Shown here piece by piece: positions 13,557-61,398 of a DNA stretch of 64,000 nt. Position 1 is the first letter of the stretch. Each line of letters starts with the position of its first letter. The stretch is from positions 199,578,001-199,642,000 of the forward strand of contig NC_042998.1 in assembly GCF_006345805.1 (NCBI RefSeq), in the 5' to 3' direction. The stretch is from Octopus sinensis (taxonomy: Eukaryota). The notes beneath the pieces are model-generated. The model ran no database searches and was not told the origin of the DNA. It worked only from the letters and a program-made list of their open reading frames with translations. Position numbers and translations under genes: made by a program.

Positions 13557-13925
13557 GCGAGGAAAAATTATAAAAAGGCAGAATGCTGAATTGAAAGTAA
13601 ATTTTAATAAAAATGGGTGTATGGAAAATTTAAAATTAAAAAAAAATATTAACTCTAACCGGTTTTCATCGCAATGCAAATTTTCAAGAACGGAAAGGTG
13701 AAAAGAATTTTTTTTAAATTGAGGAGGGGAAAAAAAAGAAATTTACATCGTTTTTTGCAAAAAAAAATAATAATAAACATATACAAAAATAGAAAAATAG
13801 GTGTACCGATACATTGTAAAGTCTTTATGTATCTTGAGTTCAATGATAGTCCTCGGAAAAATTAACTTGGAGGAATAAGATCCATGTGATTAATGTAATT
13901 GTTCGCCATTCCAATATTAGCATTT
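13557..13925 (-). mobile_element. Small TA-bounded repeat carrying an HHR-like motif (possible PLE pseudo-LTR (pLTR))
   Basis: Flanked by TA tracts; contains the fold at 13652-13691. Confidence 0.45.
13652..13691 (-). ncRNA. Degenerate minimal type I hammerhead, U3:A8 core variant
   Basis: GUUC-UUGAAAA-UUUGC(AUU)GCGAU-GAA-AACCGGUU-A-GAGU; palindromic stem III; stems I and II weak. Confidence 0.45.
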
Positions 13926-15389
13926 ATATATTTATATATTAGGATTTATGTATTCAGCTTATGCTCCCCAGACCTCCAGAAAATGTTGCCAACCGTAGTA
14001 TGAACTGATAAATGTGCCTCAAACATCGCATTTGCAATATGAAGATGAAAGGAAGGAAACAAAAGCATTGGTATCGAGAATATACCGACTAGTCGATGCT
14101 GATTATCAAACGTATAATATAGCGGTGTAACCTGAACATGATAATAATTTGGCGCTCACGACCATCTTGAAACAGCACAAATCTCGCACAAAAGACAATG
14201 ACACTTTAGATAAGGCAGTCGCTGATATGCAGTAACCGAGAAAAATTAAAAGAAGCAAGATGGTGATGTCTGAAAGAATTATGATAAAAGAACTGATGTA
14301 AGATTTTGTAATAACAAAAACGGCATCACAAAATTCACAGTCTTTTTGATATCTGTAATTGCTCGAAATAAAAATGATTTTCATCTTAGTAGCTAAAACA
14401 TTTCCTTGATGTATGTAAAATGCATGTACTAAAACCCAAAACTTTACCCTGAAGAATACAACCAATTCATACCCTAATTTCACACGGATTGTACAGATTC
14501 ATCCAGAAACATACGCTTTCGTTTCCTTTCTGTAGCTAATTTTATAATGTCCTTTTTCTCAAATTTAAACATCGTAGAACTTACCTGACATTTCTATCAA
14601 TAAACTTTACCGGCTGAATCAAATACATATGTTGTTTTATAAGTTTATTTCACATGAAATATATTTTAAATTATTTTGTATTAAAGCAATGCACCACACA
14701 CACTCAAATCCCCCGCACATACGAACGCAAGCACGCACACACACATATTATATATATATACACACATACTTGCATAAACATGAGTACATAATGCATACGT
14801 ACATATGTCTGCAATCCATGAGCAGAAGATTGCTACGGAATGTCTAAGAAACACTCGATGGTAAAAACTATGCAGCCCCAAGATACTACCGAAAATGTCG
14901 GTTATATTCACATATTTGTGTAAGACAACAGAAACAAATGAAAAGGGATATTACTAAAATTCTAAAATAATATATGATGCCAGCCAAAACGGGGACGTGG
15001 GGGTGAGGTATAAAACACTGTCCTGCGATAAATTTGCATAGTTACAAAATACATACATAAGAATCGACATTGGAAATATTGGTGGAAGATTCAAATAGAC
15101 CCTTTTCCCTAATGCAAATACAATTGGCCAGATATTGAAGATTGGGTAGACGATAAAAAAGTATATACAATCGTAGAGGCTATCTATCCTGTTCATGTGA
15201 ATATACCTTCGAAATTTACTGTAGAGGAAAACGGTAATAAAGGACACCTGTTTTAAAACAATTCGCTTCTACACCCAGATTCCTATTGTGGTTTTTGTGT
15301 GTTGTGTGCAATTATATTTTTGAAATTGGTTTAGGTGAATCTGATTTTTAAGTTGTGTCTATTGAACACACAAAATACCACAATACGAA

Positions 15390-16880
15390 ACCAGCTGTTC
15401 ATGCAGGGATAAAACTTTGTGCCCGCTAAATGGAGCTTGCATGCCCGAGACCATCATTTACGAAGCCACCGTGGACTCTATACCCGCTAAAGACACGGTT
15501 TCGACGAAGAAATACTTGGGCCTTACAGAGGGTAATTCCAAGGCCAGGTTCAATAATCACACCTTGAGCTTAAGGCACTGGGATAAAAGGAAAACGAGCT
15601 AATTATCCAGTCATATATGGTCATTAAAGGATAAAGGAGTCAGTTACAACATCCATTGGAATATTTTAGCCAAGGGTAAGAACTACACAGACGGCAGTGG
15701 AAAGTGCGGTCTATGTGATATGGAAAGATGGCTCATCTGGAAAAGAAGCTTAGAACCAACTACATACCTGAATTCAAGAACTGAACTTTTCGGCTCTTGC
15801 CCAATATGTGGCCAAGTATTTGTTACGTTTTTGGTCACCCCGAGACTACAGATAGAACTATCTTTCTATATTGTGTCCACGCACAAGCTTTTTATCTCTT
15901 AATACCTTTTACTTATATTTCTCATACATATTTTTTATTTTATTTATATTTTTTATACATATATTTCATTCATATTTATAGAGATATTGGTTTATATGTT
16001 TATTGCTTATATATTTTCTTTACACATAATTTTTCTGTATTCTAACTTCCACCCTGCATTTTTCCCTGTACGTATACAGACGTGTAGACGGAATCTTTTG
16101 TGCGCGCGTGTGAATGTGCGTGTGTGCAGGTATGTGTATATATAGATGTATGGGTGTATGCGAGTACGTGCGTATATAGATGTATTTTACTCAGTGTTTT
16201 TACACATTTTCCTGTATTTTTGCCCTTAGCCCTGCTTTTTCTTGTGTTAGACGTATGTATGATCCTTTTTGAGTGTGCGTGTATGTGTGCGTATATAGAC
16301 GTGTGCGGGTATGTGCGCATATAGGCGTCTGTGTGTGTGTGCTTAAGGGTATGTGCGTATATAGACGTGGTTTACTCTTTGTATACTCCCTTATGCCTTT
16401 TTTCTCTATCGTTATCCTTAACCCATTTTCTTCTCTGCTTGTGCGTATATAGAGGCGTGTATGAAACTTTATGGGGGGGCGTGTGTGTGTAAGGGGGTTG
16501 TATGTATATGCATATACATTTGGAGAAGGATGAGAGTGAGGATGTGTACGTTTTCCACTGAGTGTGGATGAATGTATACCTTTAGGCGCACTCACGTAGG
16601 TGTCTGAGAACACATGTGTAGATATGAACAGACGCGCTTACGCGAATACTATGAACCTTTTACCCCCGTACTTTTCTTCCTCCCCTCACTTAGCGGTCAT
16701 TCGAATAGCTCCTTTGTTTTAATAACGGTCAATCACACAGTAATTGCCCTTTGTATAACGGTCATTTTTCATAGCATTTCTCCAGATAACTGAAGAGGTG
16801 GCGGCGTGGTTTTCAACCTCGGCATCCGAAACTCGGAGTTTCAGCATGGCTACCGAATAATTGTCACAGATTACATTTAC
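15390..16880 (+). mobile_element. Penelope-like element 3' remnant (Naiad/Neptune-type GIY-YIG endonuclease, 3' UTR, HHR)
   Basis: One frame 15390-15800: CSCRDKTLCPLNGAC...IIYEATV...YLGLTE...ARFNNH...*LSSHIWSLK...WNILAK...CGLC...LNSRTE; in-frame TAA at 15600. Confidence 0.82.
16784..16846 (+). ncRNA. Degenerate hammerhead at PLE 3' end
   Basis: CUGAAGA(16790)-imperfect stem II-GAA-ACUCGGAGU-U; stem I poorly paired. Confidence 0.45.
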
Positions 16881-17394
16881 AGATATATATATATATACAT
16901 TATGTGACACTGAATACATGATGTGTTTCAGTCATTAGACTGTAGCCCATGCTGGGGCACCGCTTTGAAGAATTTTCTTAGTCGAATGAATGTATTCCAG
17001 TATTTATCTTTTTTTGAACCTCGTATTTATTGTATGTGTATATACGTTTATTGTTAGCTCGCGAAGAAGAATGCGCTGAAACACTGAGAACCGATAATTG
17101 CGATTTGCAAATATCACTTTTTAGCAAATATCCCTTTTTTATCACACGCATCATTGCCGGCGGATAGTGCCTAGTGGTTTTATTGATGTATATTACGATT
17201 GCATACGGCTTCTTATAACGCTTGTATTTGTAATATATATAAATATGAAAATAACTGTCAATTCTCGAGTCCACACAACCACTTCTCTTTCGTAAACTCA
17301 GATGTGTCTGCTTGTCTGTCTGTCTCTTTGCTTGTCTGTCAGCTTGTCTGACTGTCTGTCCATCTGTTTGACTTTCTGTGTTTCTACTTGCGCA

Positions 17395-59582: not shown

Positions 59583-59975
59583 TTAGCAGTATCGCCCGGC
59601 GTTGCTCGGGTTTGTTTCGACCATTTAGAATTGGAATTTTTGAAAAGTAAAAGTTTTGCATTATGTAGCTTGTTATTCTCTTTAAGTGAACATTTTTCTG
59701 GTTGAAATACACCAAAAAATGGCGACACAGCAGTCAAAAAATTGTAAAAAACAGGGATTTTCATAGTAAAAAAAGCACCTTTTTGATGTAAATAATTTTT
59801 GGTGTTAAGATATTCCGATTTGAATTTTATCTCCTACGGAAGGAAGAGCAAGTCTTCTTCTATCATACTTTCAATTCTGGTCAACTTGCGCCGCAGGGTC
59901 TCGGAGGAGATGGTATTAGTTTAAGGCTACCTAACCTGCCACACACTGACAACTTCAGCTTTATATATAGAGAGA
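59583..59975 (-). mobile_element. Non-autonomous Helitron (same 3' end as 21178/22714, different body)
   Basis: Minus strand TCTCTCTATATATAAAG...caaacccgagcaacgccgggcgatactgCTAA. Confidence 0.78.
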
Positions 59976-61199
59976 TTAGAAATGAAGTTCATTGATCCCG
60001 TTTATCGGTGTCTCAATTAGACAGTACGTTACTCACAGCAATTGCACTAAAATGCTGGAAGATAAATAATCAAGGTAACAGTAATGAGAAGCTTCACTGC
60101 ATCTGAAAGTTGCTTTTGTAAAACTGGAAGCTTTTCTATGAACGATGCAAACAGAAGAAGACGACCTGCTAAATGTATCTTAAATTTTGCTGGCTTTTTG
60201 TATGAGTCTGGCAAAGAAATGAATCATTTGTAACATTTAATTTCTACCGTTACGACACACGTATTACCTAACGGAATATAGCGCTTTTGCCACAGAGTCT
60301 AATGAATTATTTTACCAATAATTTTCTCCGCAATAAACCACATAGGGAACTTTCTTTGCGAACACAGCTTAATCCTTGAAAGTAATTTTCATGTGTTATG
60401 TTAACACGTTAGAGATGAAACAGCGAATAAACTTGGAAACCCTTATACAAATCAAATATTCTGAGATGTTTTCATTGTTCTCCCTTTTGAATGTTTTGGA
60501 ATTTTAAGAACCTTTCTGTATGAAGTTAAAATATAATCATGTTATAAATATTCAAGGAATTGCTAATACAATTCATTTGTTCCATTTTAACTCATGTTTC
60601 AAATTATAGATTTATGAACTGTTAATTGATTTTGTTATTTATTCTAAACCCTTGTGGCCAATAAAGAAATAGTTATTTATTCTAATCACATTTCTCTGAT
60701 TGTCACTTAGTTTCTCAGAAGAAAAAAAAAACTGGAAACAAATGAAACCTAATGAAGTTCGTCAAACATGTAAAGCCATTAGTTTTTCTTTCTCTTATCT
60801 CGTAGTGCAGATGAATAACAGAATAAACCGTGCGCATCTCCAATCCAAATGTCAAAAGCAGCTGATAATGAAAGGAAATAAAAAGTGAACATTTCATGAA
60901 TTGCTTGAATACAAAATAAGAAGACGCACAACATCAAAATTAAATCATATAAAATTTAAAACACAATGGAAAATTACAAAAAATAATGAACCACAACAAA
61001 GGATAACAAATGATTCAGTAAAGTACTGAACGCTTTAATTTAACTGACTGCTTTTGAAAACAGTGTTTATCTTCAAATAACAACAAGTGCAGTTCATATT
61101 TAATCTATATCCTTCACAAATTCACTTACACTCCTCTACACTCTGTGTATGCGCTCTGTAAATAATAGATCTAATGATACATACATACCTACATGAGTT

Positions 61200-61398
61200 G
61201 CCATGATAGATCGTTAGCCACTACACACATTTTTTCTCTCCTTGTTCCTCTCCTTATTTTTTCTGTGTCCCTTTCGGTAGAAGAGCGTAGGCTCGAAATG
61301 TAAAAGACTTTTTCTATTCCCGAGCGTTATACTAATACATCTGTTTATTTTGTACACCACCTGTCTTCGTCTTATGTTTTTTTCGTAAACTCTGCCTA
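61200..61398 (+). mobile_element. Solo PLE pLTR related to 27535-27750, with degenerate HHR (61271-61307)
   Basis: ctttCGGTAGAagagcgtaggctcGAAatgtaaaagac; flanks align by eye with the reverse complement of the 27.5 kb pLTR. Confidence 0.75.

What the first reader, a model, noticed from the sequence alone, without database searches (positions are those of the whole stretch)
13652..61307. Multiple HHR-bearing repeat families showing covariation at the 3:8 core pair
Seen: HHR-type folds at 13652 (UUGAAAA, U3:A8), 16784 (CUGAAGA), 27637/61271 (CUGUUGA/CGGUAGA), 30455 (CUGACGA), 40084/51666 (CUGAUGA) and 42797/42853 (GUGAACA). These are about six unrelated sequence families in 64 kb. Most have self-complementary stem III (ACGU, AAUAUU, AACCGGUU), and several have one extra purine after A9. 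Inference: this genome carries a dense, diverse population of PLE-linked, dimer-dependent ribozymes, including core variants that standard searches under-count. Distinct stem III palindromes could act as family-specific dimerisation codes.
Basis: partly seen in the sequence, partly recalled or inferred. Interest (0 to 1): 0.72.

Follow-up and report, generated by a model that had tools for sequence, protein, structure and literature searches.

The report
Retroelement hammerhead motifs with core swaps
This 64-kb stretch of an animal genome holds nine insertions from six jumping-repeat families that each carry a small hammerhead-ribozyme motif of the kind known from Penelope-like retroelements, two families with the paired core letters swapped (U-A or G-C for C-G); the motifs are far beyond chance, would likely cut RNA only as pairs (untested), and the kind is already in print except perhaps the G-C form.

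Summary
All eight sites lie in six dispersed repeat families of a 2.72-Gb animal genome. There is also a ninth, decayed copy at 39628-39754.

**Chance control.** A strict type-I hammerhead descriptor, open to all 16 letter pairs at positions 3:8, finds 5 sites in the window. These are families A (twice), D and E (twice). Shuffled windows average 0.063.

**The other three families.**
- Family C has A6 changed to U in all 29 aligned copies.
- The window copies of B and F are decayed, but their relatives elsewhere form good motifs.

**3:8 covariation.** It is real in this genome.
- All 17 motif clusters carry a Watson-Crick pair: 10 C:G, 5 U:A, 1 mixed, 1 G:C.
- Nine homologous elements split into 4 C:G and 5 U:A.
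- Non-paired combinations occur at the shuffle rate.

**Family E (G3:C8).** Its exact 19-letter core occurs 5,708 times. The same string with C:G occurs 0 times.

**Rfam** finds none of these motifs.

**Link to Penelope-like elements.** It is direct for this genome: reverse-transcriptase plus GIY-YIG ORFs are followed by a U:A motif. For the window's own families it is only architectural: partial tandem, head-to-head pairs, a (TA)n target.

**Not supported.** Helix III as a family-specific code is contradicted, because unrelated families share ACGU and ACAUGU. Cleavage and dimer dependence are untested.

**Known or new.** The kind, and the U3-A8 variant, were published in 2014. This scan had already noted the G3:C8 form in this genome.

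The parts
13555..13744 (-). Family F copy. The hammerhead-type motif lies at 13641-13682 with core UUGAAAA (U3:A8), helix III AACCGGUU and H17 = A. In this copy 10.1/11.1 is U.U and helix I is weakened.
   Evidence: (660 first-look candidates, 83-91% identity). A sister subfamily with G10.1-C11.1 occurs in L125 and L193.
16741..16900 (+). Family B copy, decayed. The motif lies at 16785-16850 with canonical core CUGAAGA and helix III ACUC-G-GAGU. Helix I is broken in this copy.
   Evidence: (2521 candidates, 88-91%). The natural copy L139 folds as a double hammerhead in the homodimer MFE.
27481..29100 (-). Family C element, 3' part; the right-hand limit is not resolved. The motif lies at 27637-27674: CUGUUGA (A6 to U), bulged A, helix II GAGC/GCUC, GAAACGUU, helix I of 5 bp.
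   Evidence: U at position 6 in 29 of 29 aligned copies and in the window copy.
30271..30995 (-). Family D insertion: a 568-nt unit present 1.27 times (a ~165-nt stretch is repeated at both ends), set in (TA)n. The hammerhead motif lies at 30455-30517: CUGACGA, helix II AAGA/UCUU, helix III ACGUUGACGU, GUA cut site, helix I of 6 bp.
   Evidence: (35 of 40 full-length matches are 100% identical, one being the window's own copy; tandem spacing 563-566 nt and inverted pairs elsewhere).
39628..39754 (-). Decayed copy of family A (75% identity), facing away from the copy at 40011.
   Evidence: (D10).
40011..40218 (+). Family A copy. The minimal hammerhead motif lies at 40084-40129: CUGAUGA, bulged A, G10.1-C11.1 helix II of 6 bp, GAAACGUU, helix I of 5 bp.
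42657..42980 (.). Family E head-to-head pair: 125-nt arms at 42720-42844 and 42856-42980, 99% complementary. Outward-reading motifs lie at 42800-42844(-) and 42853-42903(+): GUGAACA (G3:C8), bulged G, G10.1-C11.1 helix II, helix III AAUAUU, helix I up to 7 bp.
   Evidence: (I4).
51577..51756 (-). Second family A copy (87% identity). The motif lies at 51667-51712; helix III has changed to AUGU.
   Evidence: (I2).
61230..61389 (+). Decayed family C copy (76% identity). The motif remnant lies at 61270-61309: CGGUAGA ... GAAAUGUA.

Best explanation
The eight sites are copies of six dispersed repeat families that each carry a type I hammerhead motif with a short self-complementary helix III, the kind described for Penelope-like elements (PLEs) and animal retrozymes, and these motifs are predicted, not shown, to cut the elements' transcripts as two-molecule (double) hammerheads.

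Shown here:
- The motifs exist and are far above chance.
- Family relatives keep or restore the three helices.
- Positions 3:8 are always a Watson-Crick pair (C:G, U:A or G:C) at cluster level.
- The genome holds thousands of PLE-type ORFs (reverse transcriptase plus C-terminal GIY-YIG). Its commonest lineage has a U3:A8 motif downstream of the ORF.
- The window copies show PLE-style insertion layouts: a partial tandem in (TA)n for D; head-to-head, outward-reading 5'-truncated stubs for E and for copies of A and F elsewhere.

Inferred:
- The window families are non-autonomous or truncated riders on PLE enzymes.
- Helix III pairs between two copies, so that each core cuts the other strand after H17.
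- Most window copies are dead remnants.

Family C amplified with A6U, and a published assay found that ribozyme mutants insert normally. Cutting may therefore not be required for copying.
For: - Chance control: 5 strict hits in the window against 0.063 per shuffle. In 1 Mb of evenly spaced samples, 7 strict hits against 3 in 10 shuffles.
- Repeat families with hundreds to thousands of copies.
- 3:8 by cluster: 17 of 17 clusters are Watson-Crick, against 8 of 22 strict shuffle hits (Fisher p = 2.5e-5).
- Nine homologous elements that share conserved downstream hairpins split 4 C:G and 5 U:A with 0 unpaired. Across the structure 94.9% of cells pair, against 78.5% in shuffles (0 of 500 reach it).
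- Family E core: 5,708 exact copies.
- PLE ORFs: 5,029 first-look GIY-YIG candidates and open frames up to 883 aa, with RVT_1 plus GIY-YIG.
- A U:A motif region lies downstream on the same strand in 16 of 30 GIY-YIG loci. A strict motif is present in 5 of those 30 and also in L314 and L322.
- Tandem PLE unit in L311 with U:A and C:G motifs in the repeated part.
- The homodimer MFE is the double hammerhead for D (-31.4 against 2 x -10.2 kcal/mol) and for a natural B copy (-66.7 against 2 x -28.9).
- Literature: bulged base after A9, G10.1-C11.1, palindromic 15.2-16.2, opposite-strand pairs and U3-A8 in PLE hammerheads (PMC4209133, main text parts 1-2 read). Partial tandems, inverted 5'-truncated copies and (TA)n targets (PMC8557442, passages).
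Against: - No PLE ORF lies in the window. None lies consistently within 1.5 kb of the 172 family copies examined: 46 window ORFs and 108 ORFs from the family loci gave only LINE-like or host domains.
- No Rfam hammerhead model matches.
- The minimal types A, C, E and F do not give the double hammerhead as the MFE dimer.
- Family C has A6U in every copy seen. By established mutational work (recalled) this cripples catalysis.
- Copies within a family decay at about the neutral rate: 9% of E cores have a single change at position 3 or 8. Nothing in the DNA shows selection on individual copies.
- No E sibling with C:G exists. G:C is therefore a fixed state of one family, not a within-family covariation.
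- The helices of the nine-sequence alignment were pre-selected by my descriptor. Only the 3:8 pair was left free.
Confidence: 0.75

Rival explanations
1. The motifs descend from hammerheads but no longer work as ribozymes in these families. They persist because each copy is a young neutral duplicate, or because the fold serves another step such as protein or reverse-transcriptase recognition.
For: - Family C carries A6U in 29 of 29 aligned copies and still reached at least 137 first-look candidates.
- PMC11167929 (passages): hammerhead catalytic mutants did not change insertion in vitro, cleavage needed added protein, and no RNA-seq reads ended at the cut site.
- PMC4209133: low in vitro activity.
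- The minimal types do not fold as double hammerheads in the MFE.
- Within-family decay looks neutral.
Against: - At cluster level 3:8 is always Watson-Crick, and helices covary between related families. This needs selection on the fold at the level of master copies.
- The swapped G3:C8 form partly restores cleavage in a PLE hammerhead (PMC11167929, passages). That fits selection for catalysis rather than for sequence.
Confidence: 0.3
2. The palindrome at 42720-42980 (family E) is a foldback or miniature DNA transposon with terminal inverted repeats, and its hammerhead-like reading is a coincidence.
For: - Near-perfect 125-nt arms and no ORF.
- The hairpin even reaches the Rfam mir-25 threshold in another copy.
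- G:C occurs in this one family only, and no C:G sibling exists.
Against: - Among the first 100 listed exact-core places, 80 stand alone and 10 pairs face outward with spacings of 40-92 nt.
- The centre of the palindrome differs between copies while the arms agree.
- In L316 the two arms are joined about 310 nt further upstream. Junctions are therefore made anew at each insertion, as described for PLEs.
- The motif has features the descriptor did not ask for: G10.1-C11.1, a bulged base, and 7-bp helix I.
- G:C strict hits arose once in 300 shuffled windows.
Confidence: 0.05
3. The sites are chance matches picked out by a permissive eye.
For: - Relaxed rules give 0.74 hits per shuffled window.
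- Four of the eight listed sites fail the strict rules.
- One relaxed hit in the 32.8-35.2 kb satellite (34070) looks like chance.
Against: - Strict hits: 5 observed against 0.063 expected.
- Every site is a multi-copy family whose other members restore the missing helices.
- The same architecture sits behind PLE ORFs.
Confidence: 0.02

Closest known systems
Minimal type I hammerheads (min-HHR) in pseudo-LTRs of metazoan Penelope-like elements (Cervera and de la Pena 2014, PMC4209133; main text parts 1-2 read)
   Same: - No or very short palindromic helix III.
- A base between A9 and 10.1.
- G10.1-C11.1.
- Helix I of 4-5 bp.
- Many sequence families per genome.
- Pairs on opposite strands 100-700 bp apart.
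- Mostly solo copies.
- U3-A8 core covariation (about 1,300 hits in Schistosoma mansoni).
   Different: - Here a G3:C8 family (E) and an A6U family (C) occur.
- U:A is about as common as C:G: 4 against 3 strict hits in 1 Mb.
- The window's families have no ORF beside them.
Dimer-forming small hammerhead variants of PLEs (Lunse, Weinberg and Breaker 2016, RNA Biol; not held, known to me only through the review PMC6765202, passages, and from recall)
   Same: Hammerheads without a stem III hairpin that are reported to cleave as dimers through a palindromic stem III.
   Different: I could not read the paper or its supplements. I therefore cannot say whether it lists G3:C8 or A6U natural variants.
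Metazoan non-LTR retrozymes (Cervera and de la Pena 2020, PMC7229834, passages; Li et al. 2026 preprint 10.64898/2026.07.22.740005, abstract)
   Same: - Short non-coding tandem units with a type I hammerhead.
- Family D is a 568-nt unit present 1.27 times.
- A 353-nt tandem family elsewhere in this genome has 40 of 40 matches at 100% identity.
- PLEs are proposed as the mobilising partner.
   Different: Circular RNA was not looked for here. No run on record as RNA was available.
Laboratory C3G/G8C double mutant of the hammerhead (Martick and Scott 2006, as cited in PMC11167929, passages)
   Same: It has the same swapped pair as family E. Single mutants abolish cleavage and the double mutant partly restores it, also in a PLE hammerhead.
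   Different: Family E carries the swap naturally in 5,708 exact-core copies. Its activity is untested.
Rfam hammerhead families (type I, RF00163; accession recalled)
   Same: Same core and type I topology.
   Different: No match at the gathering score or at E<=10. Why the models miss them was not examined; the motifs here have little or no helix III loop.

Membership tests
Hammerhead ribozyme, type I | Core C3 U4 G5 A6 N7 G8 A9 ... G12 A13 A14 with A15.1-U16.1 and H17 not G | tested here: inconclusive
   - Fully met by A (CUGAUGA), D (CUGACGA) and B (CUGAAGA).
- Met with a paired swap by F (U3:A8) and E (G3:C8).
- Not met by C (A6U) or by the 61271 remnant.

Hammerhead ribozyme, type I | Three helices around the core, supported by compensatory changes | tested here: met
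   - Strict descriptor hits.
- Nine related elements: 8 of 13 pairs change on both sides and 94.9% of cells pair, against 78.5% in shuffles. These rows were chosen by a descriptor that demands the helices.
- F and its sister subfamily replace helix II wholesale.
Hammerhead ribozyme, type I | Site-specific self-cleavage after H17 | not testable with these tools
   Only contigs of runs of uncertain kind were available.
PLE min-HHR (Cervera and de la Pena 2014) | Base between 9 and 10.1, G10.1-C11.1, palindromic 15.2-16.2, no helix III loop | tested here: met
   A, C and E meet all four. F has the palindrome but U.U at 10.1/11.1 in the window copy. D and B have longer near-palindromic helix III.
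PLE min-HHR (Cervera and de la Pena 2014) | Location in the pseudo-LTR of an element that encodes reverse transcriptase plus GIY-YIG | tested here: inconclusive
   - Met for other lineages of this genome.
- Not shown for the six window families.
- C-like sequence lies head-to-head with PLE ORF fragments in 3 of 50 PLE loci.
Metazoan non-LTR retrozyme | Head-to-tail tandem units of about 150-1000 nt, each with a type I hammerhead | tested here: met
   Family D: 1.27 units here and spacings of 563-566 nt elsewhere. Not met by A, C, E and F, which occur as stubs.
Metazoan non-LTR retrozyme | Expression as circular RNA | not tested
   No run on record as RNA was available.
Rfam hammerhead models | Score at or above the family's gathering threshold | tested here: not met
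   0 hammerhead hits in the window and in 18 motif-bearing loci. None at E<=10 for 40030-40200.

The most novel reading that the evidence does not exclude
Family E is a naturally fixed G3:C8 hammerhead that still cleaves. It amplified to at least 5,708 exact-core copies with this core. U3:A8 is as common as C3:G8 in this genome. Together these would show that 3:8 is a freely exchangeable Watson-Crick pair in nature, while the A6U family C shows that copying can go on without catalysis.
Probability: 0.3. Interest if true: 0.55.

Novelty: new variant of a known kind. Interest (0 to 1): 0.42.

Why it matters
This genome offers a natural mutational series of one ribozyme: C:G, U:A and G:C at the core pair, and A6U, each fixed in an abundant young family. 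That makes two open questions directly testable. One is how free the 3:8 pair is in natural hammerheads. The other is whether Penelope-type and retrozyme elements need ribozyme cleavage in order to spread. It also shows that curated covariance models find none of these motifs, so counts of animal hammerheads made that way are far too low. The kind of element, the dimer model and the U-A variant are already in print.

Tried and rejected
- **Rfam.** Searched at the gathering score and at E<=10. No hammerhead hit. The many miRNA-like rows are TA/TG microsatellites.
- **RNA evidence.** No RNA holder was listed. Four coded runs were laid on family D. All are contigs of uncertain kind, some bridge the predicted cut site, and nothing can be said on cleavage or circles.
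- **PLE ORF beside the family copies.** Pfam on 46 window ORFs and 108 locus ORFs gave only zf-RVT, one RVT_1 and host domains. BLAST of the window families against 20 PLE loci gave no clear tie, apart from E arms 2 kb upstream of one ORF and D-like arrays near another.
- **A canonical C:G sibling of family E.** 0 exact matches.
- **Cofolding of the minimal types A, C, E and F.** Other pairings win.
- **Lunse et al. 2016.** Not held.
- **A covariance model of my own and an R-scape-type test.** Not run.

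
Full report
**Observation**

The eight cited sites are in the sequence as described. Read on the stated strands, they are:
- 40084(+) and 51666(-): CUGAUGA, a bulged A, a G-C-closed helix II, GAAACGUU, and a 5-bp helix I.
- 30455(-): CUGACGA, helix II AAGA/UCUU, helix III ACGUUGACGU (self-complementary with two central G.U pairs), a GUA cut site, and a 6-bp helix I.
- 42797(-) and 42853(+): GUGAACA, a bulged G, a G-C-closed helix II, GAAAAUAUU, and up to 7 bp of helix I.
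- 27637(-): CUGUUGA, a bulged A, GAGC/GCUC, GAAACGUU, and a 5-bp helix I.
- 61271(+): a decayed relative of 27637.
- 13652(-): UUGAAAA, with helix III AACCGGUU.
- 16784(+): CUGAAGA, with helix III ACUC-G-GAGU.

**Chance**

I wrote a descriptor with these requirements:
- helix I of at least 4 contiguous pairs;
- core N-U-G-A-N-N-A;
- 0-1 bulged base;
- helix II of at least 4 pairs;
- GAAA;
- an A15.1-U16.1 helix III of at least 2 pairs with a 0-4 nt loop;
- H17 not G;
- any letters at positions 3 and 8.

Results:
- The window gives 5 hits in three families (D, A twice, E twice). All have a Watson-Crick 3:8 pair.
- 300 block-wise dinucleotide shuffles give 19 hits in all (0.063 per window; C:G 0, G:C 1).
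- In 100 evenly spaced 10-kb samples of the same genome (1 Mb) there are 7 strict hits: 4 U:A, 3 C:G, no mismatch. Ten shuffles of that megabase give 3 hits, all mismatched.
- With relaxed rules the real megabase gives 16 Watson-Crick and 6 other hits. The shuffles give 2.8 and 5.1 per Mb.

So paired variants are enriched and unpaired ones sit at the chance level. The window is about eleven times denser than the sample (Poisson p about 1e-4 to 1e-3).

**Families**

The genome has 2.72 Gb, and the window is C2:199578001-199642000. Each site belongs to a dispersed repeat family. First-look candidates, with 40 scored each and so lower bounds:

| Family | Candidates |
|---|---|
| A | 3248 |
| C | 137 |
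| D | 1785 |
| F | 660 |
| B | 2521 |
| E | 1056 |

What the relatives show:
- **D is very young.** 35 of 40 full-length matches are 100% identical, one of them the window's own copy.
- **B.** Most copies have an intact 5+3-bp helix I that the window copy has lost. The natural copy L139 folds into a double hammerhead as its homodimer MFE.
- **F.** Most copies have a better helix I than the window copy. A few turn the U.U at 10.1/11.1 into A-U. A sister subfamily (L125, L193) has an entirely different, G-C-closed helix II between the same flanks.
- **C.** All 29 aligned copies share U at position 6. Related motifs elsewhere (L152, L211, L268) have the canonical A.

BLAST of family representatives against the window finds nine insertions with eleven motif copies.

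**The 3:8 pair**

- Over all 1.92 Mb held there are 135 strict hits, which collapse to 56 distinct strings and 17 clusters. The clusters split as 10 C:G, 5 U:A, 1 mixed C:G/U:A and 1 G:C. None has a mismatch as its common state. Of 22 strict shuffle hits, 8 are Watson-Crick (Fisher p = 2.5e-5).
- Nine elements share conserved, covarying hairpins downstream of the ribozyme and are therefore homologous. They split 4 C:G and 5 U:A.
- On their alignment the 3:8 pair is UA 5, CG 4, unpaired 0. The whole structure pairs in 94.9% of cells against 78.5% in shuffles (0 of 500 reach it). The helices of these rows were pre-selected by the descriptor. The 3:8 pair was not.
- Family E is the only G:C family. 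Its exact 19-letter core occurs 5,708 times. The same string with C:G occurs 0 times. With any letters at 3 and 8 it occurs 6,270 times, so 91% are G:C. The non-G:C cores among the first 100 listed matches are all single changes, as expected from neutral decay.
- G:C is thus a fixed family state. It is not a covariation seen inside one family.

**Link to Penelope-like elements**

- The window has no PLE ORF. It has only a LINE-like zf-RVT remnant at 19769-20500. ORFs within 1.5 kb of 172 family copies give no consistent PLE domains.
- The genome itself is full of PLEs. [quoted passage not shown]
- In 16 of 30 GIY-YIG loci a region with a U3:A8 motif lies downstream on the same strand. It passes the strict descriptor in 5 of them. 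In L314 and L322 it lies 571 and 583 nt past the ORF end.
- L311 is a tandem PLE with a 5,933-nt unit. Its repeated part holds a U:A motif and, 665 nt further on, a C:G motif.

The window families fit PLE-style insertions as described in PMC8557442 (passages):
- D is a partial tandem set in (TA)n.
- E, and copies of A and F elsewhere, form head-to-head pairs that read outward.
- E junctions vary. Ten pairs among the first 100 listed places have spacings of 40-92 nt, and the other 80 places stand alone. The palindrome centres differ between copies. One copy is joined about 310 nt further upstream.

This argues against a DNA-transposon reading. That PLE enzymes mobilise these families is an inference.

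**Dimers and 'codes'**

- Helix III is self-complementary in all six families, so a double hammerhead is possible.
- ViennaRNA gives the double hammerhead as the homodimer MFE for D and for a natural B copy. It does not do so for the minimal types A, C, E and F. This agrees with the weak in vitro activity reported in PMC4209133.
- The idea of family-specific palindromes is weakened. A, C and D share ACGU, and two unrelated clusters share ACAUGU. A 4-letter A..U palindrome has only four forms.

**Known or new**

- Minimal PLE hammerheads, the extra base after A9, G10.1-C11.1, palindromic 15.2-16.2, opposite-strand pairs and U3-A8 covariation were all published in 2014 (PMC4209133, read).
- Dimer cleavage is reported by Lunse et al. 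2016. That paper is not held; I know it through the review PMC6765202 and from recall.
- Tandem retrozymes are in PMC7229834 (passages).
- The swapped C3G/G8C pair is known as a laboratory double mutant that partly restores cleavage, also in a PLE hammerhead. The same paper found that ribozyme mutants insert normally and that cleavage needed protein (PMC11167929, passages).
- Two full-text searches found no paper that describes a natural G3:C8 hammerhead. I could not see Lunse et al. or any supplements.
- Earlier notes of this scan already record a G3:C8 repeat and head-to-head PLE stubs in this same genome, which they call octopus-like. My own impression of an octopod SINE is recall only.

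**Verdict**

The parts that may be new are the abundant G3:C8 family and the A6U family. Catalysis, dimer dependence and the mobilising partner remain untested.

Noticed in passing
window 27637-27674 and loci L032-L060: Family C carries U in place of the invariant A6 in all 29 aligned copies (91-99% identical to the window copy), yet it has amplified. Relatives elsewhere keep A6. This is a natural case of spread with a presumably crippled core.
   Followed up: partly
window 30424-30461 and 30992: The repeated start of the family D unit lies 36-37 nt downstream of the predicted hammerhead cut site. The insertion boundary therefore does not coincide with the cut. The distance recalls the 30-40-bp PLE 'tail'.
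   Followed up: no
L148 and L329-L358 (other chromosomes): A 353-nt tandem-repeat family has a canonical-core hammerhead (helix III ACUCGAGU). 40 of 40 matches are 100% identical, so it looks like a very young retrozyme-like family. A homologous family carries U3:A8.
   Followed up: partly
L311:1-7490: A tandem PLE with a 5,933-nt unit has a 479-aa upstream ORF that overlaps the 781-aa RT/GIY-YIG ORF. It has two hammerhead-like motifs (U:A and C:G) 665 nt apart in the repeated part. The 479-aa ORF has no Pfam match.
   Followed up: partly
window 39070-39455 and 43728-44108: Inverted repeats that are 96-100% complementary (three adjoining arm segments, about 385 nt in all) lie about 4.3 kb apart. 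They enclose the A copy at 40011 and the E palindrome. This may be a larger inverted duplication or an element with long terminal inverted repeats.
   Followed up: no
window 32849-35204: A 2.3-kb tandem array (periods 13, 24 and 37; AAAATTTT-rich) has strong strand skew. It yields one relaxed, probably chance, hammerhead-like hit at 34070.
   Followed up: no
L169:1531-1615: A family E palindrome reaches the Rfam mir-25 gathering score (43.7 against 40.5 bits). This is most likely a false hit caused by the long hairpin.
   Followed up: no
window 1925-2450, 45800-46010 and others: TA/TG microsatellites produce dozens of sub-threshold miRNA-family matches (mir-297, mir-3149, mir-1277). These are artefacts of simple sequence.
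   Followed up: no
window 19769-20500 (+): An ORF fragment with a zf-RVT domain (E = 2e-06) marks a decayed LINE-like reverse transcriptase downstream of the family B copy. It is not a PLE.
   Followed up: no
L237:3683 (-): A relaxed-descriptor hit has A3:U8 (AUGAUUA), helix III ACCGGU and a 6-bp helix I. It may be a fourth paired state of the core. There is one copy only, and helix II has 3 bp.
   Followed up: no
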